Virus record (IMG/VR): IMGVR_UViG_3300012983_000003
Span: 64,001-121,045 of that record
Source of the DNA: a virus
Taxonomy: Duplodnaviria; Heunggongvirae; Uroviricota; Caudoviricetes
Length of the DNA: 57,045 bases
Reading direction: 5' to 3' (one strand)
Shown here: one piece after another, positions 6,939 to 47,207 of the stretch
Layout: the number at the start of each line of letters is the position of its first letter
How positions within the stretch are numbered: position 1 is the stretch's first letter
Made by a program: the position numbers and the translations under genes
Notes under the pieces: generated by a model
The model's input: the letters and a program-made list of their open reading frames with translations, nothing else
What the model was told of the DNA's origin: nothing
Database searches by the model: none

Positions 6939-7683
6939 TCGCAGCGAGCATTGTCTTAAGTACCTCGGATTGATGTTCCTCGGGAATAGCCATACCGTAC
7001 TGAACGGCGGCTACAGATTTCTTTCGTTTCAAACTGTTAATATACATTTTTAAGGTATTGAAATAAGAAACCTGATATGTTTTAAATTGAGTTGCTGTTG
7101 TAATAATGGTGTTGATATCCTCTGCGGAATAAAACCTACATAACTCATCATCGGCGTGATAAGGGATGTGTGTTTCGCCATTAGCAACCATAGAAGACAA
7201 AGTAATAAGATTGAGTTGGTCTTGTGTAGTTAAAGAGAAGTGGTACTGATTACCGTCGCTCAAAATTACATCAAAACCATTTGTAATGATTTGATTACAT
7301 ACATAACTCATTTCGTTAATCTTTGCTTCTTTAAGATAATCGAGAGTTACTTCTTCGATGGGGTCAATTACGGGAGCTTCTTCGACAGGCTCATTTTGTT
7401 CCTGTTCAATTTCAATCTCTTCTCCCTTTTCAACAGCGGCAAGTAATATGTCGTATTCGTCTTTCTCAATTCTGACTAACTCAACCGTTTCATAGGAGAC
7501 TGTATCGGTGGTAACAGGAACCATCCAATCTGCACGATAGAATAAATCACCGCATTGAACATACTGAGCACGCTCTTCATCACAAGCTAAGATAATACTA
7601 TGCCTGTGTTGGAATTCACGGAAATTATGCTGAGTAGCAATTCCAACGAAATTCGTGCCACTTATCAGTTTGTAATAATTCAC
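6925..7683 (-). CDS. Tail-fibre-associated protein (DUF4376-like C-terminus)
   Basis: LKEAKINEMS..CNQII..GF.V...HFSLT..DQ.NL...YHAD..LCR.YS pattern typical of small genes following phage fibre genes. Confidence 0.55.
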   Translation of the reverse strand: MNYYKLISGTNFVGIATQHNFREFQHRHSIILACDEERAQYVQCGDLFYRADWMVPVTTDTVSYETVELVRIEKDEYDILLAAVEKGEEIEIEQEQNEPVEEAPVIDPIEEVTLDYLKEAKINEMSYVCNQIITNGFDVILSDGNQYHFSLTTQDQLNLITLSSMVANGETHIPYHADDELCRFYSAEDINTIITTATQFKTYQVSYFNTLKMYINSLKRKKSVAAVQYGMAIPEEHQSEVLKTMLAANGGE

Positions 7684-8917
7684 CGTTCTTACCTCCCTTG
7701 ATATGTTCGTATTTCTTGGTTAATTTATAACCATCAAATAAATCATTGTAGAGTTTTAACATATTCCTTTTCGCGTGATATGACATCGCAACTTTTGTAT
7801 GAGCGAGCCACGACTGCATCGAATTATAAACATCGTCCAGAGTCATACAGCCGTCATCAACTAAATGTCTGAATTTCTTGAGCTTGCGTCTCATACGCAC
7901 AATTCCAGCTTTAGTGAGAGTGCTGACGATTTTGCCGGTGGGAGTAATTCTATAACGAACTTTCATAAACACAAAACCACGAGTAGATTTAACAACTCTT
8001 GTTTTCTTATCATTAAATGTCAGTCCAAGTTCGTCTGCGATTTTCTTCATTTCGGCATACAGTTGATGTAAGGTTTCTTTATTATCCGAGATAACCATAC
8101 CGTCATCCATATATCTGATATAATGTTTAAACTTTCTATGGTCTTTAACATAATGGTCTAATTTGTTAGGAACAACCAAAGCCATTATCTGCGAGATTTG
8201 ACTACCGAGACAAATACCGTGAGACTGATTATTATTGAGTCTCTCCAGAAGTTTATCTCTTTCTTCTCCTGTATAGGTTCTGTTAATGACAGACTTTTCA
8301 TAGGATTTGATGATAGCCATAGTTAAACCCTTAATGTATCTATCGGTAAAGTTTTGATTAAGTACATCGAGGCAAGTTTGGTGTGGGATGCTATCAAAGA
8401 AGCTCTTAAAATCAAAAGTTAAAATATAGAATTCAGAGCCATATTCCTTTACAGCTTTTCGCAAATGACCGACTAATCTCTTTCGTGCAAAATCTACGCC
8501 TTTATCTTTCATACTTGCGCCATTATCATAAATCAATGAGTTTTGTAGCACAGGCACAAGAGCATTATCGCATAGAACACGCTGAGTCATACGGTCTCTG
8601 ATTGTAATAGGTACAATCTCTCTACGCTTACCTCTTTCATACAGTACAATACGATTAACGCTCGATAATTCTGGCAGAACACCGTTCTTCAAACTCTTTA
8701 CTGTTCTGTCGATTTCTACAATAGCGTTATGCGTATATTTTTGAACGCTACCTTTCCAACTAACACCCTTTCGACACTTTCCAAGAGCCTCAACAAAGTG
8801 TTGCATCGTGATAACGCTGTCGAAGTTATCATTATATTTAAACTTTTCAGAGCGTATCTCTGCTTTACGCTTTTTATCGCGCACTATTCGAGCTCTTGCT
8901 CTTTGGTATTTTGTCAT
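7625..8917 (-). CDS. DGR reverse transcriptase
   Basis: DFKSFFDSI, GICLGSQISQ (DGR-type G..SQ signature), YIRYMDD; basic N-terminus; AAAGGAG SD. Confidence 0.97.
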   Translation of the reverse strand: MTKYQRARARIVRDKKRKAEIRSEKFKYNDNFDSVITMQHFVEALGKCRKGVSWKGSVQKYTHNAIVEIDRTVKSLKNGVLPELSSVNRIVLYERGKRREIVPITIRDRMTQRVLCDNALVPVLQNSLIYDNGASMKDKGVDFARKRLVGHLRKAVKEYGSEFYILTFDFKSFFDSIPHQTCLDVLNQNFTDRYIKGLTMAIIKSYEKSVINRTYTGEERDKLLERLNNNQSHGICLGSQISQIMALVVPNKLDHYVKDHRKFKHYIRYMDDGMVISDNKETLHQLYAEMKKIADELGLTFNDKKTRVVKSTRGFVFMKVRYRITPTGKIVSTLTKAGIVRMRRKLKKFRHLVDDGCMTLDDVYNSMQSWLAHTKVAMSYHAKRNMLKLYNDLFDGYKLTKKYEHIKGGKNGELLQTDKWHEFRWNCYSA

Positions 8918-9241
8918 AACTTCAACTCCTTTTGGTATTTGATGTTACCCCGCACGGCTGATTTATTAACTGTTGGTTATAGCCGCAAATAGACTTGTGA
9001 CATCTCAAAAATAAACAGTCATATTATTAAGACGCGCCTACAAACTAAGGCGTTATACTATCTCGCAAGTATAAACGGGATGCTTTCATAGCATACACCT
9101 CTTAAACAGAGGTGTGTTTTATTTACTGCGATTTATCACAGAGGGTTATATTCTCCTTCTCATATATTAAAATCAACATTCCTATTTAATATGATTTCAT
9201 CTCTTTCGCCCTCATTGCGTGGTTACTCAATATATGAAAAT

Positions 9242-9347
9242 CAGGGGCAAACGCCATTCGAGTTGTTGGCGTTGTTGTTGTTGACGTTACCATTGTTGTT
9301 AACATTCCAGAAGTTAGTGGTGTTACCAATATTAGGCGAACGCAACC
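9242..9347 (-). repeat. DGR template repeat (TR)
   Basis: Reads LRSPNIGNTTNFWNVNNNGNVNNNNANNSNGVCP in the VR frame, with 15 AAY codons and 33 adenines; aligns without gaps to the VR. Confidence 0.97.
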
Positions 9348-9417
9348 CCACAAGCGAACAAGCGAACGGGCAGCCGACCCCAACAGGGTGATAGAATATA
9401 ACCAATATTAAGAGTCG

Positions 9418-10212
9418 TTATTTTAAGTTTTCAAAACGACGCTTATCTGATTTTTGTAAACCAGTTAATAATGTTATCTCTTTAACCAACATATCCGACC
9501 ATTCACGCATAATGCGTTCACTGTACTGCATCAGGTTAAAATACGCTAACATTCTTCGGTTCATCTGTTTAAGACAGGATATAGCTTTTGATATGTACTT
9601 ACTGCGTATGATATATTCATCTTTAGTAGTTGGAATTTTCTGATTTGCTTTCATTACATTATTAAAAGCGTCATCAATCAGACTTATCAATAACGCACCC
9701 TCGGTGTCGTCATAACATACCGATGCGTTCAGCACCTTGCTATATGTGTATCTGTGTAGGTTTGACATATTTCTCAGGAACTCTACCGTATGAATTTTGT
9801 CCCAATCTAAAATCATAATTTCTACACTCCTGTCAGTATTGTAAATTAAGTTTAATAAGGAGATTTCTTTATCGATAAACTCGACCCAATGTGCCATAGT
9901 TTTGGTTTTGTAATGTTCAATATTCCACAATACCATTAGGTGTTTATCTAACGATTGTAATAGGTCAACCGACTTTTCAGACAATCCTTGAACATACTTG
10001 ACTTTCTCACACTTATCACGGAAGTAGCACTCATTGATTTCCATTATATTTCGGTACACCCTATTCATAATAATATCAATATCGGTGCTCAACCACCGTC
10101 TCTTCCTTTTAGGTAAGTGAGCAGTCTTTTCTCTGCTAAACCTATATAGTTGCATAAAAGTATTCTCGAACTCTGTGTCAGAAATACGCCGCTGACTCCT
10201 AATTACAGACAT
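9418..10212 (-). CDS. avd: Avd-like accessory protein, tandem double domain (264 aa)
   Basis: Located between VR and TR. MSV.RS.R N-terminus and KSDK.RF C-terminus of Firmicute Avd; the two halves align (EF..L.R / N.M..N / M..W...KEI.LL). Confidence 0.85.
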   Translation of the reverse strand: MSVIRSQRRISDTEFENTFMQLYRFSREKTAHLPKRKRRWLSTDIDIIMNRVYRNIMEINECYFRDKCEKVKYVQGLSEKSVDLLQSLDKHLMVLWNIEHYKTKTMAHWVEFIDKEISLLNLIYNTDRSVEIMILDWDKIHTVEFLRNMSNLHRYTYSKVLNASVCYDDTEGALLISLIDDAFNNVMKANQKIPTTKDEYIIRSKYISKAISCLKQMNRRMLAYFNLMQYSERIMREWSDMLVKEITLLTGLQKSDKRRFENLK

Positions 10213-10271
10213 AATGAAAACCTCCTTTGGTTCTACTCGTCGGGCAAGCCGCCGAGATATTTTTATATATG

Positions 10272-10299
10272 CCCGCCCGACGCTTACGCGCCGAGCAGG
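10272..10299 (-). other. GC-rich hairpin downstream of the VR (candidate DGR target-recognition hairpin)
   Basis: 12-bp stem on the minus strand (9 Watson-Crick + 3 G-T) with a GTAA loop, 22 nt after the target stop, not followed by a T tract. Confidence 0.6.
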
Positions 10300-10320
10300 A
10301 CTTTATGGGTGTATATAGCA

Positions 10321-13300
10321 TCAGATAGAGAAGCAGGGGCAAACGCCACCCGAGTAGTAGGCGTCGCCGTTGGTGACGCCACCATAGCCGTAAACACCCC
10401 AGAAGCCAGTGGTGATACCAACATAAGGCGAACGCAACCACCAATATTGTGCCTGTATCCATCCGCCGCCGATTGCTGCGGTTGCATTAGGCGTAATATT
10501 GTATTTATCCAGAACCTCTTGTGGCTCATAGATATATCCTCTGCTACTATCGTCAGAGTCAAGCCAGATATCACCAGCCTTAATTACATTTGTGCTAACT
10601 GTAGACGGGTCAGATGTAGCCGAGAAGAATTTTACATCATCAGGGATAATCAAACCTTTAAACTTAAGTCTATATCTATCTGATGTATACCAAGTGATAT
10701 AATCACCCTCACTTGCATACGGCTCACTCGAGTTATTATTCATCTCAGTTGTCGAGGCTAAATAAACATTGTCTTCCGATACAATGAGTTCACTTGATTT
10801 ATTGCCAGCAGAAGCGTTGATTTTCACCTTTTTCAACATAGACTTCCATACAGTTGGCAGCGCATCGTATATTCTTGTATTCAAGAAAGTACGCATCAAC
10901 GAAGCATCCCAGCCACCGACATTGGTATTGGTTGAATTCATCCAATAAGTTCTACCTGCAAGTAAGTGATTACAAATAAACGAAGCATTGGATTTTTGGC
11001 TCGTACCACCAGCTAATCTGTATCTCTCAGACCCACAGAATTCCATTCTCAACGGCTCGTGATACCAAGTTGCTAATTGCTTACAGTTGGTATCTCCAAT
11101 GTCGTCATACCAAATTTTACACCAGTGAATAATACCTGTACCATAGTCATCATAGCCACCATCACTGAAACGAATACCGCCGAACGAGATGGCTTCGTCC
11201 GTATTTGTACTACGACTTCTGGTAATTTCAGCTCGAATTGTTGCTGCGCTAAATTGTGTTTTTGCGTCTGTACCGTTAGAGGCATACACATATAATTTAT
11301 TTTCGCCTTTACGATGTCTAATGACTACAATGTCACGCTGTAATCCACTACCAAACTCTTGTTTGACATCGCCCCACTGTATATTCGGATTAGAATTATA
11401 TCGTAATCTAAATCCCTCGGAGCCATCTTCTTGGAATGTAGAAACAAGCGTATTATTAACATCTGTACCAGTAAATTGATAATCAATCGCCAATGTAAAG
11501 CTTCTTTCATTTTCACCAAAAAGTTTAACTTCTGTCGTAGTCGCAGTAGTACCGTCAAGCACGAGATTTTCTGCAAGCACCTCACTTGGTACATTTGCAA
11601 AATTAAAGTCGTGACCAAGTGTAATGTCGGTGTAGTCTTTTAATGCAAAATAGTTTGCTGTTTTACCAGACGCTACCACAGCATTGATTTCGGCTACAGA
11701 CATCTCCTCGAGGTGTTTACCACCTTCTACGGTAGGTAATGCGGGTAAGCTTGCTCTTTCCCAGATAGCATATACATCTGTGTCGCCACGGATATAGCCT
11801 GTGCTCTTATCCCAACCGGCAAACACATTGTAAATAGCGAATTCTTCCTCGGTTGTATTTGTAGGAGTTGCGCCAGTATAAACAACCTCGCTACCGTAAG
11901 TAGCCTGTGTAGAGCCGAGAGATAAGCCAGCTCTCGAATACCAAGTTACCGTGTAAGTACGAACAGTCTTGGTGTATTTAGCCTTAACGGTACGCTTCGC
12001 AAGAACAGCACTTGTAATTTCATCCCAGCCACTACCTGCGACATATTCGCCGTCTGTAGTCGTGCCGAACTCGTAAGTATATTGCTCGTCGCTTGCCTTG
12101 GTAGGCTTAGCAATCCAGCCTTCTTTATACGGGTCGGGCGGTGTGGCGTTCTGGTCAACATAAACTTCATATAAAACTGTGTTTTCATCATCATCGTTCA
12201 CATAGGTGATAAGATGCTGAGGAATTAAGTTTGCGGGGTCATAAGTAACTTCCAAGTCAGACCAAGCAGCCGCATAATTTGCGAGTTCCTGATTTCTGAT
12301 AGCGCCACTTACATATACCTTACCGCTAAGCGAAGTGTTGTTCATAGCAAGGATTTCGTTGAGAAGTGTACTGTCGGGAAGTGTCCAATCGATACCTGTG
12401 AGTCGGAGTGTTTGTAAGGTATCTTTTGCATCAACAACGATAGCGTACTCATCTACGATAGAGTTTTCCTCTGTCAAAGACTCAAGGTTATCATAAGATA
12501 CTTGTAAGTCTGTTAAGTAGTTAAGGTTACGCATCGACAAAGTGTTAATGGTATCAGGTAAGTGAGCAGTCACAATCTTACCGTTCGGTGCAAAGATAAC
12601 ACCAGTAATTGCGGTGCCCTCGGCATAGAATGTTTCGAGGTTGCCACAACTTGTAAGGTTGACAGAGCCGATTAAGTTCGGGCAGTTCTTGACATTCAGT
12701 TCCTGAAGCAATGCGTTATTACCGATATTAAGTTCAGTTAAGAAACTGTTAGCATAACCCTCGGTGTCATTACCGATAATTAACTTCTGAAGCTTAGAAG
12801 CCTTAGTGAAGTCGTTATCGTGAATATAACAACCAGAAAGGTCATTAAGTTCCTGAATTTTAGACGAGCAGTAGATGAGGATTGCAGTATCATCCATCTT
12901 ACCACTTAAGGGGTTCTTGATTTCATACTCAACACCCGCTTTTGCACGAATTTGCATCGGGGTAGCAGAGTTACCATAGAGAACCGAAAGGTACATATCT
13001 GCATAAGGAACAATCTTAAGGTCATAATTCGGGGTTACAACCGCTTCGGTAGGCGTATTACATCTGAACATAATCTGGTCAGCCTTAACAGAAGCAGCGA
13101 CATATTTGGTGCCCATATAGGCTTCTTGGTCGCGTTCCCATTGTCTACGGTGGTATCTCTTACGACCATTCATCATAGTCTCTAAGAAACGCTTTGTACC
13201 ACCTTGATATGTACGATAATATTTACGCTCAATATCGAGCTTCCAAAGTTCTTCGCAGAACATTTCTTGCCAAGTATCGAACTGAGAAATTAAACCGCTT

Positions 13301-16300
13301 GCGCTCCAAGCACCAGCACTTTCTCTATTCAGATACATAGCTTGTAATTGAGGATACATAAGGTCACGAATACGACAGAAGAAAATACTTTCAGCAGCGT
13401 TATAGATGTAGCCAGAGTTCGGGTCTCCGTCTGTTCTGTAGTCAGTATCTTCCTTACCATAGGTCATTGTCATCTCACCGGAGTTGTTAATACCTATTGC
13501 CGTGTCGTTATCATAATCCCAGAAGTCAAATCGGTATCCATTACGGATAGCGGCTGCTTCATTATCGATGGTGTACCACTCAGCCTTATCGCCTAAAGCC
13601 TCGGCTTCTGCTTCACTGATATAAACCTTAGCATAATGCCAGAAAGTGTTTTTAGCACGGTTATCGACCATCGTGTATCGCTCGGTGAATAAATACATAT
13701 ATAAGGATGCTTCTTCGATTGTCCAGTCTTTCAGCTCGTTAACGAACTCTTCGTCTGTCGAAGTAATAATCCATTTATAAAAGTCATTCCATACCTGAAT
13801 GTTAGCAGCTTGTTCCTCATCGGTGATATCGGCGTGCTCATATCTGAACTCAAATGTTTCATCCCAGTTACCATAGAGTGAGTCATAAGCAGTGTTGCCT
13901 GCAACCCATTGAGACTCAGAAATAGGATAAACCTGATTACCACTTGCGTCTGTTAAACCAGACGGGAAAATGGAGTTAGGTTTAGTATTATCGGAAATCT
14001 CAACTACGAACTCATTGTGGTCGTCAGGGTCGTATGCACGAGTAGAGTCAGTATCTTTAGAGTCACCAATATTACCAAGGGCATAGAAGTGCCAGTCGGT
14101 ATCGTTGAACTCTCTGTGTGTAGAGAGGTCGCTGTTGTTCTCGCGAACAAACACCACGCAGTTCACAAATTCCATAGTTGTCTTTGCGTTCGGGTCACGC
14201 TTTTGAGCAACAGTTGTATAAGGTAAGAACTCGTGGAAACGCTTTTGGAGTAAAGCGTTATTTGCGTTTTCAGACGAAGCGATATTTACCTTAATATTAA
14301 ACAAAGCGTTAGGAACAGAGGTACGGGTTAAAGCAACCTTACCTGTGCCATCAGAATACTTTGTACCATCGCCCATAGTTAATTCGGTAATATAATCGGG
14401 GTCGTATGTAGTATTCTTGTTTGTATATTCTCCGTCAAAACACATATAAATGTTAAGGTTTCTACCGGCGTATCCATATTCATTAGAAGTTGTACCCTGA
14501 CCAGAATGGGCAGCGTTAATCGCTTTCCAGTTGTCAAGTGCAGTATCACCGTTCTTGTGGATACATTCGATAGTTGTATTTTTGATGATTTCCTTTTTAT
14601 CCTGAGTAAAGTAAGGACAATCAATCTTAATAATCTTTAAGTCAGGACACGCAGATGCAACGAACTCAGGAGTAATCGCGTTATTTTCGTTGTAAATATC
14701 GTTACGCTCATATCTTGCTATCATAGTATCGGAGTCACGAGAGTCAGCGATAAAGTTAGAAAGAATGTCCGCGTCACTTAAAGCAGAGGTATAAGCCTTC
14801 ATACGATAGATGTGGATATCACAGTCGTCAGAGCCGATTGTAATAGGCACAGGCGCAAACTGATAAAGTCTGTGTGCCGCATCGTAAATAAGAGGTCTGA
14901 AACCAACACCGTCTTCATAACTCATAATAACTGCTGTTGCAGTTGCATCTTCGGTATCAAGAGTGTTGATATTGAATTCCATTTCAACGATGTCGTCTTC
15001 GCTGTAAGGAATATATAAGGGGTCGCTACCCGTTGCACTTGTCTTCAAATAAGCCGCGTGAGCGTTCATTTCTAAACCAACGACCGTGGCGTCGGATTGA
15101 CAAGACAAGAATGTTGCATCGGCATCACGAACGTTAGTGGCTTTGAAAATAACTTTAAATTCAGAGCCATACAAACTTGCATCTCTTTCAAACAAGTTAT
15201 AGTTAATAACAGCGCGAGTACCTGCCTTAACACAGAAATACTGGTTGCCATCATCATCTAACTGATAACCACCGTTAATCCAGTCGAAGTCGTCAGATAC
15301 AGTCATAGTCACGCCTGTATTAGCATCAGTCCATAATCTGTTTTCGCTGGTGTTGGATAAACCAGTGGGGTTAAAGTCAAACGCAAGATTTGCAGTTACG
15401 GGAGAAACATCAATACCAAGCTCGGCAATATCCATAACAATCGGTACAGAAACATCACGGCAAGAGATAACAAGGTTATGGTCGCCAATAACATCGGTCT
15501 TATAAGACCAAGTATTAGATGTAGATGTTAATGTTTCGGTCGCTACAACAGAGCCGTCTGCGGTATGAGTAACCGTAGGTGTGCCTGTGTTCGGGTCAAA
15601 CACATAGTAAACGATGTTCGTGGTGTTATACTGCTTAGAGGGAACCTTACCGTAATGGTCATATCTGTAGATACAGCCAATAACGGGGACATCAGACTCA
15701 TCATCAAACCAAACAATATCCTTGAAGATATGGTCGGTTTCAATATCGATGTTGTTTACGGTTGCAGTAATGTAACACTCGAGTAAGTGAGCGCCGTGCT
15801 CTTGTGCCGGTAACGAATACGACTGTAAAGTACCAGAGGCAGAAGTAACAACGGGTTCAAGCTCTTCACCGTCTAAAATAAAATGAACCGTCTTAGAGAC
15901 GGAACCGTAAGGAGTATATGTAAAGTTGACCGAGTTACCTGCGGGGTATGTAATTCTATCACTGAAAGCAGACTCAAGTCGAACATCGACAACCTGCACA
16001 GTCCAAGACTTAACATTCACGCTACCGCCGTCATCAACAACAGTAAGGGTGAACTTCTGAGTACCGATGGAAACATATTCGGTCATATCAAAGGTGTTTT
16101 CGCCCTGAACGAGAGCGCCAGTCATAATAGTGGAACTACCAAGTTTCCAAGTGTAGTTACCGTCAATTAACTCGCCGTCAGAGTCGGTAGAAGAATAGTT
16201 GATTTTGATTTCAACTTTATCTGTTGGTGTTGCGATAATAGGAGACGCTGTGATACGGTCAACAACAAGGTTAGTAGTTGTGGTTGTACCACCACCGCCA

Positions 16301-17982
16301 CCGCCCGCGATTACGAACTGGCTCTTAACCTCTTCTTTGCCGTCCTTACACTCCCATAAGGTAAATACATTGTCTGCCTCGTCGCCAGTAAGCAATGTTG
16401 CTCTACCGTATGTTGCATAATATGTATATCCCTCAACATCCAGATTTCTCATTTCTTGCTGTAACTGTGTAACAGTGCCGCTTAAAGACTGAATGTTGGT
16501 TGCGTTACCTGCGATATTCTGAGCGTTCTTATCAATGCTTTCTTGGAAAGCAGCAATCATCTCATTGATTTGGTCTTTTGTGTAGCTATCGCCACCAATT
16601 ACGCGAAATTCTCCGTTAATAAATCTGTAATGTGTGTAAGCACCACTATCCTGATTAACGATATAATAATCGGTAAATTCACTACCTTTTTCAATATCTG
16701 GTAAAGCCGAGCCCACATACGCGAGAGAACCCGCAATAATCTCCCAATAACCCTCGATGTATTTATAATATAAATAACCAGAGTTTGTTTTAAGGATATA
16801 GTCAACATCTGGCTCTCCGACTTCAGGTAATGACTCTACAACAAGTGTAGAAGAACCACCGAATACATCCCAAGTTTTATTACCAACCTCATCTGTAATA
16901 TACCAATACTTATCATATCCGGTACCAGAGTCTTTGGGAATAAGATAGAATGTCTGCGAAGCACCAGCCGCGGGGAGCTCGTCAACAATTTCAATAGTAA
17001 ATGCGTTATATTCTGCAAGTAATGCCTGCATATAACTTCTTGATAACGCAACAGAACCTCTCAAGGCATCGCCAAGCTTCTGATACTTTAATGTATCTGT
17101 TAAAACATAAGCATCTGCAATTTCATTCTTAACTTCATCAAGATTATACTGAACCATATCAGCACGACCTTGTGCATACGAATAAACATCAACCTTAAGG
17201 TTTTGAGTGTCATATACATTAGGCTGCATAGCAGTTTCAGCCTTGCTTAAAGTAGACTCAAAATCCGCATCAACTTTACTACGAGAAATACTACCGTCTT
17301 GGATAGTTAAATTAGCAAGCTGACCGCTGGCAAGATAGTCTGCCATTTCTTCAATAACTGCGTTTTCAATCAACTCAGCGATAACCTCGTTATTTGCTAA
17401 CTCGGTGACTTGAAGCTGTAAGTCGTCTACTTGCGCTTGGTCAGCCTTCAGCGCGATAGCATTTGCGTTGGCAGTTTCGGCTGCCTTTGCTCTGGAAATC
17501 TCGCTAATTAAGTCAGCTTGCGCCGCTTTTCTATTGATTTGAATTTGTAAATCCTTTTGTGCGGCTTCAATATCGGCAACGCTTTGGTCATTCCAAGAAG
17601 TAACTGCGTTAATTTTGGTAACAAGCTGATTGTAGAGAGACTCCGAAATTTCTGTGCTACTTGCGTCAGAAATTAAAATATTTTCGTCAACACGCAAAGT
17701 AAGATAGTTGGTTGTACCTATGGTTGTTTCGTGACTACCATAGAGCATCAACGTACAAGTACCAACACCGATTTCAGGCGGTAAGAAAACACAATTATCT
17801 TCATCAAGATACTGGTTATACGCCGTACCGTTCTGCCTAAACTGCGCGAATGTCATTAAGCCGTCCCATTCATCAGTTAAGTTAAATTGAAACTTAACAA
17901 ACTGTTGAGAACCCGCCACGATGCCATCCATTGTTGAAGACATATACATCTTTTGGTTGACGACATTTATGAGTATGCTCAT
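10321..17982 (-). CDS. Giant multidomain tail fibre / receptor-binding protein, DGR target
   Basis: BppU-like N-terminus, three ~40-aa repeats, Ig-like folds, LamG-like domain, CotH-like kinase region, LRRs, InlB-B-type repeats, C-terminal DUF6273/CLec-like domain with WWLRSP and the VR. Start ATG 17982 after GGAGG. Confidence 0.88.
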   Translation of the reverse strand: MSILINVVNQKMYMSSTMDGIVAGSQQFVKFQFNLTDEWDGLMTFAQFRQNGTAYNQYLDEDNCVFLPPEIGVGTCTLMLYGSHETTIGTTNYLTLRVDENILISDASSTEISESLYNQLVTKINAVTSWNDQSVADIEAAQKDLQIQINRKAAQADLISEISRAKAAETANANAIALKADQAQVDDLQLQVTELANNEVIAELIENAVIEEMADYLASGQLANLTIQDGSISRSKVDADFESTLSKAETAMQPNVYDTQNLKVDVYSYAQGRADMVQYNLDEVKNEIADAYVLTDTLKYQKLGDALRGSVALSRSYMQALLAEYNAFTIEIVDELPAAGASQTFYLIPKDSGTGYDKYWYITDEVGNKTWDVFGGSSTLVVESLPEVGEPDVDYILKTNSGYLYYKYIEGYWEIIAGSLAYVGSALPDIEKGSEFTDYYIVNQDSGAYTHYRFINGEFRVIGGDSYTKDQINEMIAAFQESIDKNAQNIAGNATNIQSLSGTVTQLQQEMRNLDVEGYTYYATYGRATLLTGDEADNVFTLWECKDGKEEVKSQFVIAGGGGGGTTTTTNLVVDRITASPIIATPTDKVEIKINYSSTDSDGELIDGNYTWKLGSSTIMTGALVQGENTFDMTEYVSIGTQKFTLTVVDDGGSVNVKSWTVQVVDVRLESAFSDRITYPAGNSVNFTYTPYGSVSKTVHFILDGEELEPVVTSASGTLQSYSLPAQEHGAHLLECYITATVNNIDIETDHIFKDIVWFDDESDVPVIGCIYRYDHYGKVPSKQYNTTNIVYYVFDPNTGTPTVTHTADGSVVATETLTSTSNTWSYKTDVIGDHNLVISCRDVSVPIVMDIAELGIDVSPVTANLAFDFNPTGLSNTSENRLWTDANTGVTMTVSDDFDWINGGYQLDDDGNQYFCVKAGTRAVINYNLFERDASLYGSEFKVIFKATNVRDADATFLSCQSDATVVGLEMNAHAAYLKTSATGSDPLYIPYSEDDIVEMEFNINTLDTEDATATAVIMSYEDGVGFRPLIYDAAHRLYQFAPVPITIGSDDCDIHIYRMKAYTSALSDADILSNFIADSRDSDTMIARYERNDIYNENNAITPEFVASACPDLKIIKIDCPYFTQDKKEIIKNTTIECIHKNGDTALDNWKAINAAHSGQGTTSNEYGYAGRNLNIYMCFDGEYTNKNTTYDPDYITELTMGDGTKYSDGTGKVALTRTSVPNALFNIKVNIASSENANNALLQKRFHEFLPYTTVAQKRDPNAKTTMEFVNCVVFVRENNSDLSTHREFNDTDWHFYALGNIGDSKDTDSTRAYDPDDHNEFVVEISDNTKPNSIFPSGLTDASGNQVYPISESQWVAGNTAYDSLYGNWDETFEFRYEHADITDEEQAANIQVWNDFYKWIITSTDEEFVNELKDWTIEEASLYMYLFTERYTMVDNRAKNTFWHYAKVYISEAEAEALGDKAEWYTIDNEAAAIRNGYRFDFWDYDNDTAIGINNSGEMTMTYGKEDTDYRTDGDPNSGYIYNAAESIFFCRIRDLMYPQLQAMYLNRESAGAWSASGLISQFDTWQEMFCEELWKLDIERKYYRTYQGGTKRFLETMMNGRKRYHRRQWERDQEAYMGTKYVAASVKADQIMFRCNTPTEAVVTPNYDLKIVPYADMYLSVLYGNSATPMQIRAKAGVEYEIKNPLSGKMDDTAILIYCSSKIQELNDLSGCYIHDNDFTKASKLQKLIIGNDTEGYANSFLTELNIGNNALLQELNVKNCPNLIGSVNLTSCGNLETFYAEGTAITGVIFAPNGKIVTAHLPDTINTLSMRNLNYLTDLQVSYDNLESLTEENSIVDEYAIVVDAKDTLQTLRLTGIDWTLPDSTLLNEILAMNNTSLSGKVYVSGAIRNQELANYAAAWSDLEVTYDPANLIPQHLITYVNDDDENTVLYEVYVDQNATPPDPYKEGWIAKPTKASDEQYTYEFGTTTDGEYVAGSGWDEITSAVLAKRTVKAKYTKTVRTYTVTWYSRAGLSLGSTQATYGSEVVYTGATPTNTTEEEFAIYNVFAGWDKSTGYIRGDTDVYAIWERASLPALPTVEGGKHLEEMSVAEINAVVASGKTANYFALKDYTDITLGHDFNFANVPSEVLAENLVLDGTTATTTEVKLFGENERSFTLAIDYQFTGTDVNNTLVSTFQEDGSEGFRLRYNSNPNIQWGDVKQEFGSGLQRDIVVIRHRKGENKLYVYASNGTDAKTQFSAATIRAEITRSRSTNTDEAISFGGIRFSDGGYDDYGTGIIHWCKIWYDDIGDTNCKQLATWYHEPLRMEFCGSERYRLAGGTSQKSNASFICNHLLAGRTYWMNSTNTNVGGWDASLMRTFLNTRIYDALPTVWKSMLKKVKINASAGNKSSELIVSEDNVYLASTTEMNNNSSEPYASEGDYITWYTSDRYRLKFKGLIIPDDVKFFSATSDPSTVSTNVIKAGDIWLDSDDSSRGYIYEPQEVLDKYNITPNATAAIGGGWIQAQYWWLRSPYVGITTGFWGVYGYGGVTNGDAYYSGGVCPCFSI
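10334..10439 (-). repeat. DGR variable repeat (VR) at the 3' end of the receptor-binding protein gene
   Basis: 21 mismatches versus TR in 106 nt, all at TR adenines (14 A>G, 6 A>T, 1 A>C); encodes LRSPYVGITTGFWGVYGYGGVTNGDAYYSGGVCP. Confidence 0.97.
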
Positions 17983-18024
17983 TTGCAATCCTCCAATCTT
18001 TATTCATTTCGGTAATACAATGTA

Positions 18025-19821
18025 TTACGCTGTTCGTTTCCAAGCATAAACACCACTAATACCAGTGGAGACGCTTGACCAACTGCCGATATTGTTTATC
18101 GCAGTAGGTAATGTACTTCCGCTGTGCATATAGACTGCTCCAACGGGGTACATAATATTAAGAATATTCACATTATTTAGCATAATGGGAACATTGAAAT
18201 TAAAATCATTTTCGCCCCAATCACAAATTGGAATACCGCGTGATACCGGGACTGTTTTAGTGACCGTGCTTAAGACATAACCATCGGCGCCATCTTTGAC
18301 CCTCACCTGAAAATCATAATCAAGATGATAGTCAAAATCCTCTCCTAACGAAATACTGCCATCAGAACGATATGTAGTAGTGCTTTTGATAATTTTCGTT
18401 GTATCAACGGTTTGCCAAGCACTGTATGAGCCACCAGACGCGGCATATCGATACTCCATTATTAAAGTGTTAGATTTTGCACCAAACGACCCTTGATACC
18501 AACTACCACTAACATCTAACACTATAGAACTTCCGGTAGAGGTCGGTCGTGTGATGATAGGATTGCAGGTTAACTGGACATAATTTACAACAGTTGGTGT
18601 TACAGTTGTAGAATTTGAATACCCACGGGAGTCAGTGGTTTTAAATACAAATTCCGTGGCTGAAACATTTGTAAATGTTTTTACATCATTTGATGGAGTT
18701 TCGTTGTTTATCGTTTTTGATGAAATGGTAGCCGAGTTTTTAGAGGTTGCTGTAATGGTACATTTTGCCGTAGACTTATACCTGATTAAAATAGTATTAC
18801 TATCAGTACCTCCGGTTAAGGCTAATGTAGTGGTGTTTGTGTCAACAACAGAACCAGAAACACTTGGTTTGCAACTTGACGAAGCCGCCGTGACGGTTAG
18901 AGTGCAAGTATTTGACCCCAATGACGTATTGCCGTTATATGTCGTGCAAGTTATAGTACAAGTTCCTGTTTTTGCATTTGGAATTTGTGCGTAGAAAGCA
19001 GTAGGGACAGTCCAAGCAATAGAGGTGCTTGAGGATTTAGTGGCTATAGTTCCCGTGAGACTACCAAAGCTATATGTTAATGTGTGTGTATAACCTGAGT
19101 TATATCTTGTGACGGAAATTGTTGATGCGCTACCGATATTTGCATCTGTGGCGCCAACCTCCGACTTCAAAGGTGTTGCGGTCGCAACGACAGAAACATT
19201 ACCGCTGACAGTATGTGTATTACCAGATGTAAAACTTGAGCCATTAACGGTATGTTTGGTAATGCCATAGTTTGTACTTGCCGTAAAAGAAATTTTAAGT
19301 TTGTCACCATAGTATAATTTATTAGCGCCAGCGGATAAATTGCCAGTACCTCCTGCGCCGCCAGACGAGGTTCGGTTAACTGTAATACTACTACCAGTAC
19401 CCGCAGATATACTAAGTGTATATAAAGGAATACGAGAACAGTTGATAGTTGTGGAACTAAGACTAATATTACCCGGACCCCAACCACCAGAATTACACGA
19501 GCCACTACAAGAAACTGTAAAACTTGCATCACCGGTGGTAGTATTATGGTTAATTGTAGTAGAACCAGATTTAATGGTAATGGTATATCCTTTGTTGCCC
19601 TTGTCGTTCATATTAACATTGCCGTTGTATGAATACGCGCTACCGGCAACATAGTAGGTGACATTCATATTACCATCAAAGTCATACGAGTCGGTAAGCT
19701 GTTCGATTTTCAGCGCGTGAGATATTGTGCTTTGCTTATTTGCGATGCTCGTCGAGATTGAATATTCAATATACATTTTGTACCAACTACTGCGGTCAAC
19801 AGTACAATTTATAACTGCCAT
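18025..19821 (-). CDS. Minor tail / baseplate structural protein (DUF859-like)
   Basis: S/T/G-rich; ATDANIGS...HTLTYSFG..GTIATKS..W..P..FY.QIPNA..G..TITC.TY pattern; position between Tal and fibre. Confidence 0.7.
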   Translation of the reverse strand: MAVINCTVDRSSWYKMYIEYSISTSIANKQSTISHALKIEQLTDSYDFDGNMNVTYYVAGSAYSYNGNVNMNDKGNKGYTITIKSGSTTINHNTTTGDASFTVSCSGSCNSGGWGPGNISLSSTTINCSRIPLYTLSISAGTGSSITVNRTSSGGAGGTGNLSAGANKLYYGDKLKISFTASTNYGITKHTVNGSSFTSGNTHTVSGNVSVVATATPLKSEVGATDANIGSASTISVTRYNSGYTHTLTYSFGSLTGTIATKSSSTSIAWTVPTAFYAQIPNAKTGTCTITCTTYNGNTSLGSNTCTLTVTAASSSCKPSVSGSVVDTNTTTLALTGGTDSNTILIRYKSTAKCTITATSKNSATISSKTINNETPSNDVKTFTNVSATEFVFKTTDSRGYSNSTTVTPTVVNYVQLTCNPIITRPTSTGSSIVLDVSGSWYQGSFGAKSNTLIMEYRYAASGGSYSAWQTVDTTKIIKSTTTYRSDGSISLGEDFDYHLDYDFQVRVKDGADGYVLSTVTKTVPVSRGIPICDWGENDFNFNVPIMLNNVNILNIMYPVGAVYMHSGSTLPTAINNIGSWSSVSTGISGVYAWKRTA

Positions 19822-19836
19822 TCTCTATACACCTCC

Positions 19837-22284
19837 TTATCCGCCAACAAAGAAACACGCTGTGCGTTTAGAGTCGGTACCGTTTGAATAATCCTCAAAG
19901 CGTGTGTTTGCACCAACAATTAAATACTGTCTGGCGCTAAGGTTTAAAGCATTTACGCCGTCTGCGTTTGCCGCTAACACCACCTCGTCATCACGAGTAA
20001 TTTGCATACCTTCGTGGTTCAGTAGGTTTGTGATTTCGTGGTTTTCACGATAAATATTTAAACCATCATTATTAAAGGTGTATCCCATTGAGGTCATAAC
20101 CTTATCCGCTTCTGTACTTTCTTCAAGGGTTTGAACTCTAATTGTCAGAGAGTCCTTTTCTTGTATAACCTGTGTTAATTTATCATCAATTTCCCCAACA
20201 GAAGATTTGATTTTGCCATCAACAACAGTTAATAATTCTTGACCATTTTTATCTAATATCTGCATATTGTTACCCATAATGATTTCACCAATGATAACTT
20301 CTGCGTTTATACCGTATGCTGTTCCACCCTCGCCGAAATCAAGTTCGCCGACAGCGGTCTTACAAGAGTCCCACGAGTCATCCGTAAATACAAGATTTTT
20401 ACTTGTTAGCTTTACTTGTTGAGGGTCGAATTCACCGTTTTCTAATCTGCGTCTACCAGTATATCCAGCGCCGTCAATAACAACCTCTTCGTCTTCTGAC
20501 GCAAGCGCCTTATTCATCGTTAATGTGCGTGAGGTTTGTAACGCTTCCTTCATCGCATTAAACTCTCCATTTTTAATCGGATAGAGAATTTCTTTGATAT
20601 AATTTAAGGTGTTTGCAGACTTTGAAATATTACCAAGTACATTTTCAAACAACGACTTGGGGTCAAACTTATTAAAGCGATTACCGAAAGTCATAGTCAA
20701 AACTCGGTCATCATAGTTAATTGTGATATTAGATAAAAATAAAAGAGCAATATCGTTGGTGTCTAACTCTACATTGATTAAACAGCCAGTTTCTAATTGC
20801 TCGCTCCAGTGTTGGAATTTCTTTGAAAATATAAAGTTTTCTGCGTCCACATCAAATTCTTGTGTAGGCTTAGATACTCTGTCAAGCTGAGACTTACTAC
20901 GGTCATACAAAATTTTCATTTGTGCAAACTTCTCGTCGTAAGTCATAATATCGGTGAATGTAACATATTCATCTCGATAACTACCCTCGAAGATATAATG
21001 AGAAAGTTCAGTATATTCTTCTTCGGTAAAATAATTTGTAATAGCCAACGCCTGTTGAATGTCGCTAATATCCATACGATATATCGCGATATATACATTG
21101 ATGGAGTTAAGCTGAGTTACAATGTTTTCTTGTTTGCTTTCACATTCGGCAATCAAATTATCAATGGATTTAAGCGTGTCCGCAATTTCTGGACATACCT
21201 CGATTGGCATACCACCATTTTCAATAATAATGGTATTATAATCATCGACCAAGAGCGTGTTAGACTCTGCAATAATATTTTCTCTACAACGCCTATACAT
21301 CTTGATTTGCGTAGCTAAACTCTCAATCTCGAATTGTAAATTATTAGCCTCCGTCAATCTGTTATAGTATTGTAGATTTAATTTATAATAGTTATCCATT
21401 TGGTCATTGATTGCTTTCTGCCAAGCAGTCACTTTATTTGCCAAGCCCTCAGACATCCAACTAATATAATAACTGAAGTCATAGATTACATTGGTGCCAA
21501 GTGGGTTAATAGCCGAGATAGTGATGTTTTCATCACCCAAAACACTAATTGCCGTATATAAATCATCGGCATTTTCTGTTATGTTGATTGAATTTATTAA
21601 GTCATCTTTTGTAAGATGAATGTCTGTCTGGCGAACATAATTATCTTGTGCATAGACGCTAATAGTGCGGTTGATTGTATTAAAAATAAAAATACATTCG
21701 TATGCTTCTTGTACTTTTTCTAACAAAAACGCAAGACAGTTCATAGATGTATCAACATCTTCAAATGTACGCCATTTTTCCGATACTGCATCATCCACAT
21801 ATTCGATAGTCCATAACGGAATGGTCTCGACAATGGTTTCTAAAATACCTTTATTGTTTCCTGTCATATCGGTAGAAAAGCGATATGTTCCATTAGCGAT
21901 GAAAGGTATCATCTTTTTTTCTATCTCAACATCTATAGATTTCGCAGTAATATCTTTAAAATGGACTCCGTTTTCATATCCGTCTTTGACAGAAGAAATC
22001 ATAAAATAACCTATATCTTCTGCAAAAATTAAACGCTTATTTTGTAACGCTTTGTAAATAGCATAAGTATGCGCATTTTCATCGGGGTCTTCACGGATAA
22101 TCCTATTTACTCTTAAATTTAAGTCCGATGTAGCATTGAAATTAAAAACAATTTCTTCAGCTTCGTGGTCTACCAGCATACCAACGACATTTGTTAACAT
22201 ACCGTTGTTATACACACTGCCCGGACTACATAAAGTAAATTTAGGAAGTTCAAAATTCTCGAGGCTACTGTAACGAACAATCAT
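19837..22284 (-). CDS. Baseplate hub / tail-associated (Tal-like) protein
   Basis: Follows Dit; prophage-tail-type N-terminus, coiled coil, C-terminal TF..DGL.I motif. Confidence 0.7.
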   Translation of the reverse strand: MIVRYSSLENFELPKFTLCSPGSVYNNGMLTNVVGMLVDHEAEEIVFNFNATSDLNLRVNRIIREDPDENAHTYAIYKALQNKRLIFAEDIGYFMISSVKDGYENGVHFKDITAKSIDVEIEKKMIPFIANGTYRFSTDMTGNNKGILETIVETIPLWTIEYVDDAVSEKWRTFEDVDTSMNCLAFLLEKVQEAYECIFIFNTINRTISVYAQDNYVRQTDIHLTKDDLINSINITENADDLYTAISVLGDENITISAINPLGTNVIYDFSYYISWMSEGLANKVTAWQKAINDQMDNYYKLNLQYYNRLTEANNLQFEIESLATQIKMYRRCRENIIAESNTLLVDDYNTIIIENGGMPIEVCPEIADTLKSIDNLIAECESKQENIVTQLNSINVYIAIYRMDISDIQQALAITNYFTEEEYTELSHYIFEGSYRDEYVTFTDIMTYDEKFAQMKILYDRSKSQLDRVSKPTQEFDVDAENFIFSKKFQHWSEQLETGCLINVELDTNDIALLFLSNITINYDDRVLTMTFGNRFNKFDPKSLFENVLGNISKSANTLNYIKEILYPIKNGEFNAMKEALQTSRTLTMNKALASEDEEVVIDGAGYTGRRRLENGEFDPQQVKLTSKNLVFTDDSWDSCKTAVGELDFGEGGTAYGINAEVIIGEIIMGNNMQILDKNGQELLTVVDGKIKSSVGEIDDKLTQVIQEKDSLTIRVQTLEESTEADKVMTSMGYTFNNDGLNIYRENHEITNLLNHEGMQITRDDEVVLAANADGVNALNLSARQYLIVGANTRFEDYSNGTDSKRTACFFVGG

Positions 22285-47017: not shown

Positions 47018-47207
47018 GGTCTCCAGCCCCTTTCTTTACCGCCTTGTTACCCTGATTACGAACTTCATCAAGGTATTTCATTACACCCTTGGACTCCTCG
47101 CAATAGTAACGATGGCGTTTAGATTTCTGCTTCATTGTTCTAACGATATGAGCCTTCGGGAAGCGCTTTACAATAGCTTCTTTTTCTTGTTTAGAAATAG
47201 CAATCAT
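46995..47207 (-). CDS. Small basic hypothetical protein
   Basis: 70 aa, K/R-rich (KQKSKRHRYY). Confidence 0.65.
   Translation of the reverse strand: MIAISKQEKEAIVKRFPKAHIVRTMKQKSKRHRYYCEESKGVMKYLDEVRNQGNKAVKKGAGDHTNRAKS

What the first reader, a model, noticed from the sequence alone, without database searches (positions are those of the whole stretch)
7625..10439. Complete DGR with a record of adenine mutagenesis, diversifying the receptor-binding tip
Seen: ungapped 106-nt TR/VR alignment with 21 differences, all at TR adenines (21 of 33; 14 A>G, 6 A>T, 1 A>C), an invariant GC-rich 3' block (GGCGTTTGCCCCTG) and diverged IMH/IMH*-like ends (CTTCTCTATC versus ATTTTCATAT). RT has YMDD and the G..SQ signature. 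Calculation: 15 AAY codons (15 residues each) and 3 single-A codons (4 each) give about 3x10^19 possible variants. Established: same architecture as the Bordetella phage BPP-1 tropism-switching DGR.
Basis: partly seen in the sequence, partly recalled or inferred. Interest (0 to 1): 0.8.

Follow-up and report, generated by a model that had tools for sequence, protein, structure and literature searches.

The report
Active two-target phage DGR
This is a genuine and currently active diversity-generating retroelement in a 121-kb gut phage; it rewrites, only at template adenines, the tip of a giant tail protein and of a second small lectin-like protein, so it is a very well documented example of a known kind of system, not a new one.

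Summary
TR (window 9242-9347, minus strand) and VR1 (10334-10439) align without gaps over 106 nt. All 21 mismatches fall on the 33 TR adenines (14 A>G, 6 A>T, 1 A>C; chance 4e-14). Gene order is target(VR)-accessory-TR-RT, as in phage BPP-1, and the RT's best solved relative is the BPP-1 enzyme.

New points:
- A second variable repeat (VR2, 13 A-only changes) lies 56 kb away, outside the window, in a 241-aa DUF6273/C-type-lectin protein.
- Public assemblies show current activity. Contigs with zero differences in 1,900 nt of flank differ at 15-22 VR1 positions. Across 9 distinct 106-nt alleles all 33 adenine positions vary. The only non-adenine position that varies is one where the TR itself carries a T>A variant, which was copied into both VRs.
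- VR alleles with one or two extra codons arise in AAC runs while the TR stays at 106 nt.
- A hairpin with compensatory changes follows both VRs.
- The TR RNA is closed by helices with compensatory changes.
- The accessory protein is a fused double Avd, widespread but unnamed.

This scan already reported doubled-Avd phage DGRs on other genomes. Verdict: a real, active, ordinary-in-kind DGR and a new member of a known kind.

The parts
10321..17988 (-). Target gene 1: 2555-aa tail-module protein with a C-terminal DUF6273 (C-type-lectin-like) domain; its last 35 codons are VR1
   Evidence: ORF. Pfam DUF6273 at E 1.4e-12. It lies between tail genes (tape measure 24505-30063; tail proteins 18025-22284) and the DGR and lysis genes.
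10334..10439 (-). VR1, the variable repeat: 106 nt, 21 A-only differences from the TR
   Evidence: Public contigs hold 21 distinct alleles, which vary only at TR-A positions.
10324..10347 (-). IMH: invariant GC-rich 14-mer (10334-10347) plus the VR-specific CTTCTCTATC (10324-10333)
   Evidence: CTGCTTCTC(T/A)ATCT is conserved after the VRs of 14 related DGRs.
10271..10301 (-). First GC-rich hairpin after VR1 (GTAA loop), 32 nt past the VR end
   Evidence: RNAfold. Related loci have hairpins in the same place but with unrelated sequence. Role not resolved.
10236..10256 (-). Conserved hairpin after the VR (stem CGG/CCG plus outer CTCG/CGAG, loop CTTGC), preceded by ATCT; candidate target-site inverted repeat
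   Evidence: The 13-mer GGCGGCTTGCCCG occurs only twice in the 121-kb genome, once after each VR. The hairpin is kept in 14 related DGRs with compensatory stem changes.
9418..10212 (-). Accessory gene: 264-aa fused double Avd (two four-helix bundles)
   Evidence: PHROG Avd match on residues 12-119. The two halves resemble each other at E 1e-7. AlphaFold2 pLDDT 89.4 with two four-helix bundles. The C-terminal half matches 2gsc at Z 16.9 and 2rld at Z 16.0. A profile of single Avds matches residues 137-264 at 99.1% probability.
9393..9403 (-). 5' flank of the TR, which pairs with the spacer motif at 9144-9154
   Evidence: An 11-12 bp helix is present in all 15 clade members, with many compensatory changes.
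9242..9347 (-). TR, the template repeat: 33 adenines, 15 AAY codons
   Evidence: It is identical in 14 of 19 related contigs; the other 5 carry one T>A.
9230..9241 (-). IMH* (ATTTTCATAT...), which pairs with spacer 9157-9167
8918..9229 (-). Structured spacer RNA between TR and RT: conserved motifs, a long-range helix to IMH* and to the TR 5' flank, and three hairpins
   Evidence: Alignment of 14 clade members. RNAalifold found 29 pairs, 20 with compensatory changes.
7625..8917 (-). DGR reverse transcriptase, 430 aa: YMDD at 8102-8113, LGSQISQ at 8189-8209
   Evidence: Pfam RVT_1 at 7.5e-18. phrog_1423 at 2.5e-69. Best solved relative is bRT 8ub7 at E 3.7e-17.

Best explanation
This is a complete, currently active diversity-generating retroelement of a 121-kb phage with terminal repeats. 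Proposed mechanism: a transcript holding the TR and its structured spacer is bound by the RT together with the double-Avd accessory protein. The RT copies the TR into cDNA faithfully except opposite adenines. The cDNA then replaces the homologous variable repeat, guided by the GC-rich block plus the VR-specific IMH, and probably by a conserved hairpin downstream. Two genes receive the information. VR1 is the last 35 codons of the adjacent 2555-aa tail protein. VR2 is in a 241-aa lectin-like protein 56 kb away on the other strand. In both, 15 AAY codons on a C-type-lectin-like surface are randomised (about 3e19 combinations each). Slippage in AAC runs occasionally adds one or two codons. Shown here: all parts, the adenine-only pattern, TR-to-VR information flow, and diversification on unchanged genomic backgrounds. 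Inferred: cDNA synthesis by this RT, RT-Avd binding, the role of the hairpin, and that the varied surfaces bind host receptors.
For: - Anatomy and adenine-only mismatches.
- RT motifs and closest solved relative bRT.
- Accessory protein is Avd-like in both halves.
- VR2 found by a genome search, with 13 A-only differences and a near-identical IMH.
- Both targets carry DUF6273. The target-2 model matches the DUF6273 domain of 9qa6 (Z 15.6), the DGR targets TvpA 2y3c and 4eps (Z 7.4), and many C-type lectin domains.
- Population data: 19 TR copies are invariant apart from one T>A lineage. There are 21 distinct VR1 alleles. In the 9 unique 106-nt alleles, 151 of 156 mismatches sit at TR adenines. 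The other 5 sit at the one position where that lineage's TR has become A. All 33 A positions vary; none of the other 72 positions does.
- Six contigs share 1000 + 900 nt flanks with 0 differences yet differ at 15-22 VR1 positions; a second group of four behaves the same way.
- The TR T>A variant appears in VR1 and in VR2 from runs whose accession numbers are close together, probably one study.
- VR2 protein alleles are hypervariable exactly at the 15 AAY codons and invariant between them.
- The hairpin after both VRs is unique to those two places in the genome and keeps its stem through compensatory changes in relatives.
- The TR RNA structure shows compensatory changes.
Against: - Contigs are consensus sequences and could in principle be chimeric across VR alleles.
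- A few VR2 alleles from more distant relatives carry 1-3 non-adenine differences from this window's TR. Their own TRs were not seen.
- The conserved hairpin sits 54-77 nt after the VR end, not directly after the IMH as in BPP-1, so equating the two is an inference.
- No experiment shows that either target binds a receptor.
- Close relatives exist whose RT has lost its TR (L004, L006), so the element is not indispensable.
Confidence: 0.95

Rival explanations
1. A fossil DGR: the TR/VR pattern records past mutagenesis, but the element no longer works in this phage.
For: Four other contigs (L079-L082) carry exactly the window's VR1 allele, so this allele can be stable. Sibling phages have an RT without a TR.
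Against: All open reading frames and motifs are intact. Contigs with identical flanks carry very different VR1 alleles, and the TR is conserved. The spacer RNA structure is under selection.
Confidence: 0.04
3. The varied surfaces are not host-receptor binders. In particular, target 2 would be a non-virion binding protein with another ligand (for example a mucosal or other environmental glycan or protein, or an intracellular partner).
For: Target 2 lies among early or auxiliary genes (retron, NAD-related genes) on the strand opposite the structural module. It has no structural PHROG match apart from a VR-only match to Hoc-like decoration proteins. Its closest solved fold is the N-terminal DUF6273 domain of a bacterial IgA protease (PMC12402451). 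Non-tail DUF6273 DGR targets have been proposed to bind other ligands (PMC10743442).
Against: Target 1 is clearly inside the tail module. Small single-domain C-type-lectin second targets are known in phage DGR cassettes and have been proposed to ride on tail structures (PMC10743442). Nothing here tests the ligand.
Confidence: 0.35

Closest known systems
Bordetella phage BPP-1 DGR (mtd-avd-TR-brt)
   Same: Same gene order. The VR is at the 3' end of a tail-associated C-type-lectin-fold target. Mutagenesis is adenine-only. A GC-rich block is followed by diverged IMH and IMH*. An inverted repeat lies downstream of the VR, and a structured spacer RNA lies between TR and RT. The RT is the best solved match (8ub7).
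   Different: The accessory protein is a 264-aa fused double Avd, not a 128-aa Avd. The RT is 430 aa against 328. The target is 2555 aa with a DUF6273 domain, not Mtd. The conserved hairpin lies 54-77 nt after the VR end. There is a second, distant target.
Gut-phage DGRs with two DUF6273/C-type-lectin targets (nd4 and nd12 phages, Faecalibacterium prophages; PMC10743442, PMC11792537)
   Same: One TR serves two different proteins, each displaying the VR on a DUF6273 C-type-lectin domain. One of the targets is a small single-domain protein.
   Different: Here the second target is not in the cassette but 56 kb away on the other strand. The first is a giant tail protein with the VR at its C-terminus, not an N-terminal-VR 'tentaclin'.
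DGRs with non-adjacent targets and with 3-nt indels at AAC runs (survey of Wu et al. 2018, PMC5758913)
   Same: Non-adjacent targets within about 50 kb are known in phage-associated DGRs. Seven percent of DGRs show TR/VR length differences, mostly next to AAC, attributed to slippage. GC-rich inverted repeats follow the IMH in 34% of DGRs.
   Different: That survey describes avd genes as 'of similar length'. Here the length variants are seen repeatedly on identical genomic backgrounds with a fixed 106-nt TR, which dates them to the same time scale as the adenine mutagenesis.
Doubled-Avd phage DGRs reported earlier in this scan (e1-1873048, e1-1856880)
   Same: Giant tail-protein target, double Avd, TR and RT in gut Clostridia phages, judged ordinary in kind.
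   Different: Those are on other genomes. The present case adds a remote second target and population evidence of activity.

Membership tests
Diversity-generating retroelement (DGR) | Reverse transcriptase of the DGR type: YxDD catalytic motif plus the [I/L/V]GxxxSQ motif | tested here: met
   YMDD at 269-272 and LGSQISQ at 237-243. The best solved relative is bRT 8ub7, and the alignment places IGSLTSQ over LGSQISQ. phrog_1423 at 2.5e-69.
Diversity-generating retroelement (DGR) | A TR/VR pair whose differences fall at TR adenines | tested here: met
   VR1 21 of 21 and VR2 13 of 13 differences at TR adenines; chance 4.5e-14 for VR1.
Diversity-generating retroelement (DGR) | VR inside a protein-coding target, with adenines at codon positions 1 and 2 (AAY) | tested here: met
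   15 AAY codons in frame; the VR is the last 35 codons of the ORF.
Diversity-generating retroelement (DGR) | An IMH at the VR 3' end that differs from the IMH* at the TR 3' end, after a GC-rich block | tested here: met
   The IMH is nearly identical in VR1 and VR2 and conserved across 14 relatives.
Diversity-generating retroelement (DGR) | Accessory protein (Avd or equivalent) next to the TR | tested here: met
   264-aa protein with two Avd-like four-helix bundles. The double length departs from the usual form.
Diversity-generating retroelement (DGR) | GC-rich inverted repeat downstream of the IMH (present in a minority of DGRs) | tested here: met
   A conserved hairpin with compensatory changes follows both VRs. 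It lies 54-77 nt away, so equivalence to the BPP-1 cruciform is inferred.
Diversity-generating retroelement (DGR) | Ongoing one-way TR-to-VR transfer: VR varies, TR does not | tested here: met
   (contig level, not read level).
Diversity-generating retroelement (DGR) | RT-dependent synthesis of adenine-mutagenised cDNA | not testable with these tools
   Needs an experiment.
Avd / 23S rRNA intervening-sequence protein fold | Basic four-helix bundle of about 110-130 aa | tested here: met
   Both halves are four-helix bundles. The C-terminal half matches 2gsc at Z 16.9, rmsd 2.0, 115 aligned. hhalign against single Avds gives 99.1% probability. The N-terminal half matches the PHROG Avd model at 1.7e-5.
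Avd / 23S rRNA intervening-sequence protein fold | Homopentamer that binds the RT | not tested
   Five copies exceed the size limit of the complex predictor, so no job was sent.
DUF6273 / C-type-lectin-fold DGR targets | C-type-lectin-like fold with the VR on its surface | tested here: met
   Pfam PF19789 on both targets. The target-2 model (pLDDT 82.6) matches 9qa6 NTD at Z 15.6, TvpA 2y3c at Z 7.4, 4eps at Z 7.4, and many C-type lectin domains at Z 5.4-6.7. Surface exposure of the VR was not measured.

The most novel reading that the evidence does not exclude
The doubled-Avd DGR clade, to which this element belongs, may work with a different machine from BPP-1. A fused two-bundle accessory protein cannot form the canonical ring of five single bundles. 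The template RNA is held as a closed loop: one spacer segment pairs, with compensatory changes, with both the TR 5' flank and the IMH*. Targets may be marked by a conserved-loop hairpin (ATCT-stem-CTTGC-stem) that can sit 30-110 nt from the VR and works on a gene 56 kb away. If so, the clade would define a distinct, portable targeting code and complex architecture for DGRs.
Probability: 0.3. Interest if true: 0.55.

Novelty: new member of a known kind. Interest (0 to 1): 0.35.

Why it matters
It gives a clean natural record of a working DGR. The template is invariant. There are dozens of VR alleles on identical backgrounds. A template point variant is copied into both targets. In-frame codon additions arise in AAC runs. 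That makes this phage family a good model for studying DGR targeting in trans, length diversification, and the so far uncharacterised double-Avd accessory protein (over 100 clusters at 50% identity, no Pfam family). As a kind of system it is already well known.

Tried and rejected
- blastn of the cassette against INPHARED phages found no match.
- Rfam scan of 7000-11000 gave only one sub-threshold snoRNA-like chance hit.
- Exact-pattern scans for further VR/TR copies: viral contigs gave only L005's TR. Metagenome contigs gave nothing, then one unrelated DUF6273 gene, L075.
- NCBIfam and the PDB sequence search gave nothing for the accessory protein.
- Foldseek of the accessory model listed bAvd itself nowhere in its top rows, only the related 2gsc and 2rld.
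- MAFFT alignment A2 of the hairpins misplaced members with longer loops, so pair counts were made from individual folds instead.
- The promoter/terminator scan showed nothing above chance for promoters.
- Pfam found no CotH or other domain in the middle of the tail protein.
- The idea that the nearby retron-type RT serves VR2 was rejected.
- No complex-prediction job was sent. The question was not open enough and a pentamer exceeds the size limit.
Full report
**Observation.** All genes of the element lie on the minus strand. Read in that sense, TR (window 9347..9242) and VR1 (10439..10334) align without gaps over 106 nt. There are 21 mismatches, every one at a TR adenine. The TR has 33 adenines, and the changes are 14 A>G, 6 A>T and 1 A>C. 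The chance that 21 mismatches all fall on the 33 adenines of 106 positions is 4.5e-14. VR1 is the last 35 codons of a 2555-aa ORF (10321-17988). In its frame the TR carries 15 AAY codons and three single-A codons, which gives 2.8e19 protein variants. The repeat ends in an identical 14-nt GC-rich block. After it come CTTCTCTATC in VR1 and ATTTTCATAT in the TR.

**Parts.**
- The RT (7625-8917, 430 aa) matches RVT_1 and phrog_1423. It has YMDD at residues 269-272 and LGSQISQ at 237-243. Its best solved relative is the BPP-1 DGR enzyme bRT (8ub7, E 3.7e-17), and the alignment places IGSLTSQ over LGSQISQ.
- The gene between VR1 and the TR (9418-10212, 264 aa) has no Pfam or NCBIfam match. Residues 12-119 match the PHROG 'Avd protein of DGR'.
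- Its two halves resemble each other (E 1e-7). An AlphaFold2 model (pLDDT 89.4) shows two four-helix bundles.
- The C-terminal bundle matches the Avd-like 2gsc (Z 16.9, rmsd 2.0, 115 aligned) and 2rld (Z 16.0), well above the next rows. A profile of ordinary 134-150-aa Avds from sister DGRs aligns to residues 137-264 with 99.1% probability. The accessory protein is therefore a fused double Avd.
- This form is conserved in about 20 related viral loci whose RTs are at least 44% identical, whereas more distant sisters have single Avds. An exhaustive profile search finds 103 representatives at E<=1e-30, most of them 260-290 aa and covering both domains. I found no paper describing it. This scan has noted doubled-Avd DGRs on other genomes.

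**Context.** The window is the right-hand 57 kb of a 121,045-bp IMG/VR virus record with direct terminal repeats. Target 1 follows the tape measure and tail genes. The DGR, a small tail-fibre protein, an endolysin and a holin come after it. Its C-terminus carries DUF6273. This Pfam family has been described as a C-type-lectin fold that displays the VR as a beta-hairpin (PMC10743442).

**A second target outside the window.**
- A search of the whole genome with the TR found a third copy at genome 17819-17924 on the plus strand, 56 kb from the TR. It differs from the TR at 13 positions, all adenines (6 G, 5 T, 2 C), and is followed by CTTCTTTATC, one base different from VR1's IMH.
- It ends a 241-aa ORF (genome 17230-17955) that also carries DUF6273. 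That ORF matches the C-terminus of target 1 both within and upstream of the VR.
- A model of it (pLDDT 82.6) matches the DUF6273 domain of the Thomasclavelia ramosa IgA protease (9qa6, Z 15.6). It then matches the DGR targets TvpA (2y3c) and 4eps (Z 7.4) and dozens of C-type lectin domains.
- Non-adjacent targets within about 50 kb are known for phage-associated DGRs (PMC5758913), as are two-target DUF6273 phage DGRs (PMC10743442).
- A retron-type RT lies 3.4 kb upstream of target 2. The genome has no other template copy, so VR2 is served by the DGR.

**Activity.** Contigs encoding the same or a 90%-identical accessory protein gave 19 TR copies and 26 VR1 copies.
- Fourteen TRs are identical to the window's, and five carry a single T>A at TR position 87 (index 86).
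- VR1 has 21 distinct alleles. In the nine distinct 106-nt alleles, 151 of 156 mismatches to the TR are at adenines. All 33 adenine positions vary, and the only other varying position is index 86. There the VRs read A or G exactly in the lineage whose TR has become A.
- Six contigs from different runs have no difference at all in 1000 nt upstream and 900 nt downstream of VR1, yet differ from each other at 15-22 VR positions. A second set of four behaves the same way.
- The T>A template variant also appears in a VR2 allele (L107) from a run whose accession sits next to those of the variant-TR contigs, probably the same study. Both targets therefore read the same template.
- For VR2, 55 homologues and cluster members show 2.1-3.0 bits of entropy at exactly the 15 AAY codons, and invariance at the residues in between.
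- Many contigs end at the VR or the TR, as expected where assemblers meet mixed alleles.

**Length variants.**
- One third of full-length VR1 alleles are 109 nt and one is 112 nt, while every TR is 106 nt, including TRs on the same contigs.
- The extra codons sit in the AAC runs.
- They occur on backgrounds with identical flanks, and VR2 alleles show the same thing at the same place.
- Such 3-nt indels beside AAC were reported in 7% of DGRs and attributed to RT slippage (PMC5758913; also discussed in PMC12875486). So this is a clear example of a known behaviour.

**Cis elements.**
- After both VRs lies a hairpin preceded by ATCT, with a CTTGC loop. Its 13-nt core occurs only at these two places in the genome.
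- It is present after the VR in 14 related DGRs, 30-110 nt downstream. The stems are changed in a compensating way (GGCGG/CCGCC, GGCAG/CTGCC, GGTGG/CCACC, GCGGTAA/TTACCGC, GGACTGG/CCAGTCC and others) and the loop is conserved.
- It is not followed by a T run. Because it accompanies the remote VR2, where no avd follows, I read it as the counterpart of the GC-rich inverted repeat that aids homing in BPP-1 and Legionella (as summarised in PMC5758913). This is an inference.
- On the template side, the 324-nt spacer between TR and RT has strongly conserved motifs and a consensus structure in which 20 of 29 pairs show compensatory changes.
- One spacer segment pairs with the IMH*, and the adjoining segment pairs with the TR 5' flank. 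That second 11-12-bp helix is present in all 15 clade members with many double changes. It confirms and extends another first-reader note. The TR is thus presented as a closed loop.

**Relatives without a template.** Two records (L004, L006) have a 99%-identical RT and the same downstream genes. Sixty-one nt past the TR end they join DNA homologous to genome 36-40 kb, and they hold no TR. The element can therefore be lost by rearrangement.

**Verdict.** It is a canonical DGR in mechanism and architecture, and is best filed as a new member of a known kind. Three features are worth noting: a fused double Avd that is widespread but undescribed in the papers I could search, a distant second target, and unusually clear natural evidence of ongoing adenine mutagenesis and codon insertion. 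The receptor-binding role of the two varied surfaces remains inferred.

Noticed in passing
L004:5380-5600 and L006 (junction equivalent to window 9181): Two metagenomic relatives keep a 99%-identical DGR RT plus the fibre and lysis genes. TR, avd and target are replaced upstream by DNA homologous to genome 36-40 kb, and there is no TR anywhere in those records. This is an RT orphaned by rearrangement.
   Followed up: partly
genome 12504-13874 (+), outside the window (L078:3505-4875): A 456-aa retron-type reverse transcriptase (YADD; best models retron St85 family and RT_II-A) sits 3.4 kb upstream of the second DGR target. Earlier notes of this scan describe it as a phage retron with several template RNAs.
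   Followed up: partly
window 47079-47121: A 43-nt stretch here recurs at 98% identity just upstream of the orphan RT in L004 and L006. It may be a repeated regulatory or recombination element.
   Followed up: no
L087, L097, L103, L104 (start just after the VR); L088-L092 (end at the TR): Many public contigs of this phage break exactly at VR1 or at the TR. This is the expected assembly signature of mixed VR alleles within a sample.
   Followed up: no
genome 18013-18378 (+), just after target 2 (L078:9014-9379): A 121-aa ORF with a lipoprotein-like signal sequence directly follows the second DGR target and its hairpin. It is conserved as a 118-aa gene in relatives (L107, L108).
   Followed up: no
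L012:4075-4488 and L013:8421-8834: These relatives carry, beside the double Avd, an ordinary 137-aa Avd about 1.1 kb downstream of the RT. This suggests a second DGR or a spare accessory gene.
   Followed up: no
window 13000-14650 (residues about 1100-1680 of the tail protein): Another first-reader note proposes a CotH-like kinase domain here. Pfam gave no match to this stretch even at E<=1. Fold-level tests were not done.
   Followed up: partly
window 9348-9392: In this phage 45 nt separate the TR 5'-flank helix from the start of TR/VR homology. In relatives the homology (122-142 nt) starts 0-17 nt after the helix. The VRs here seem to have lost homology to the 5' part of the template.
   Followed up: no
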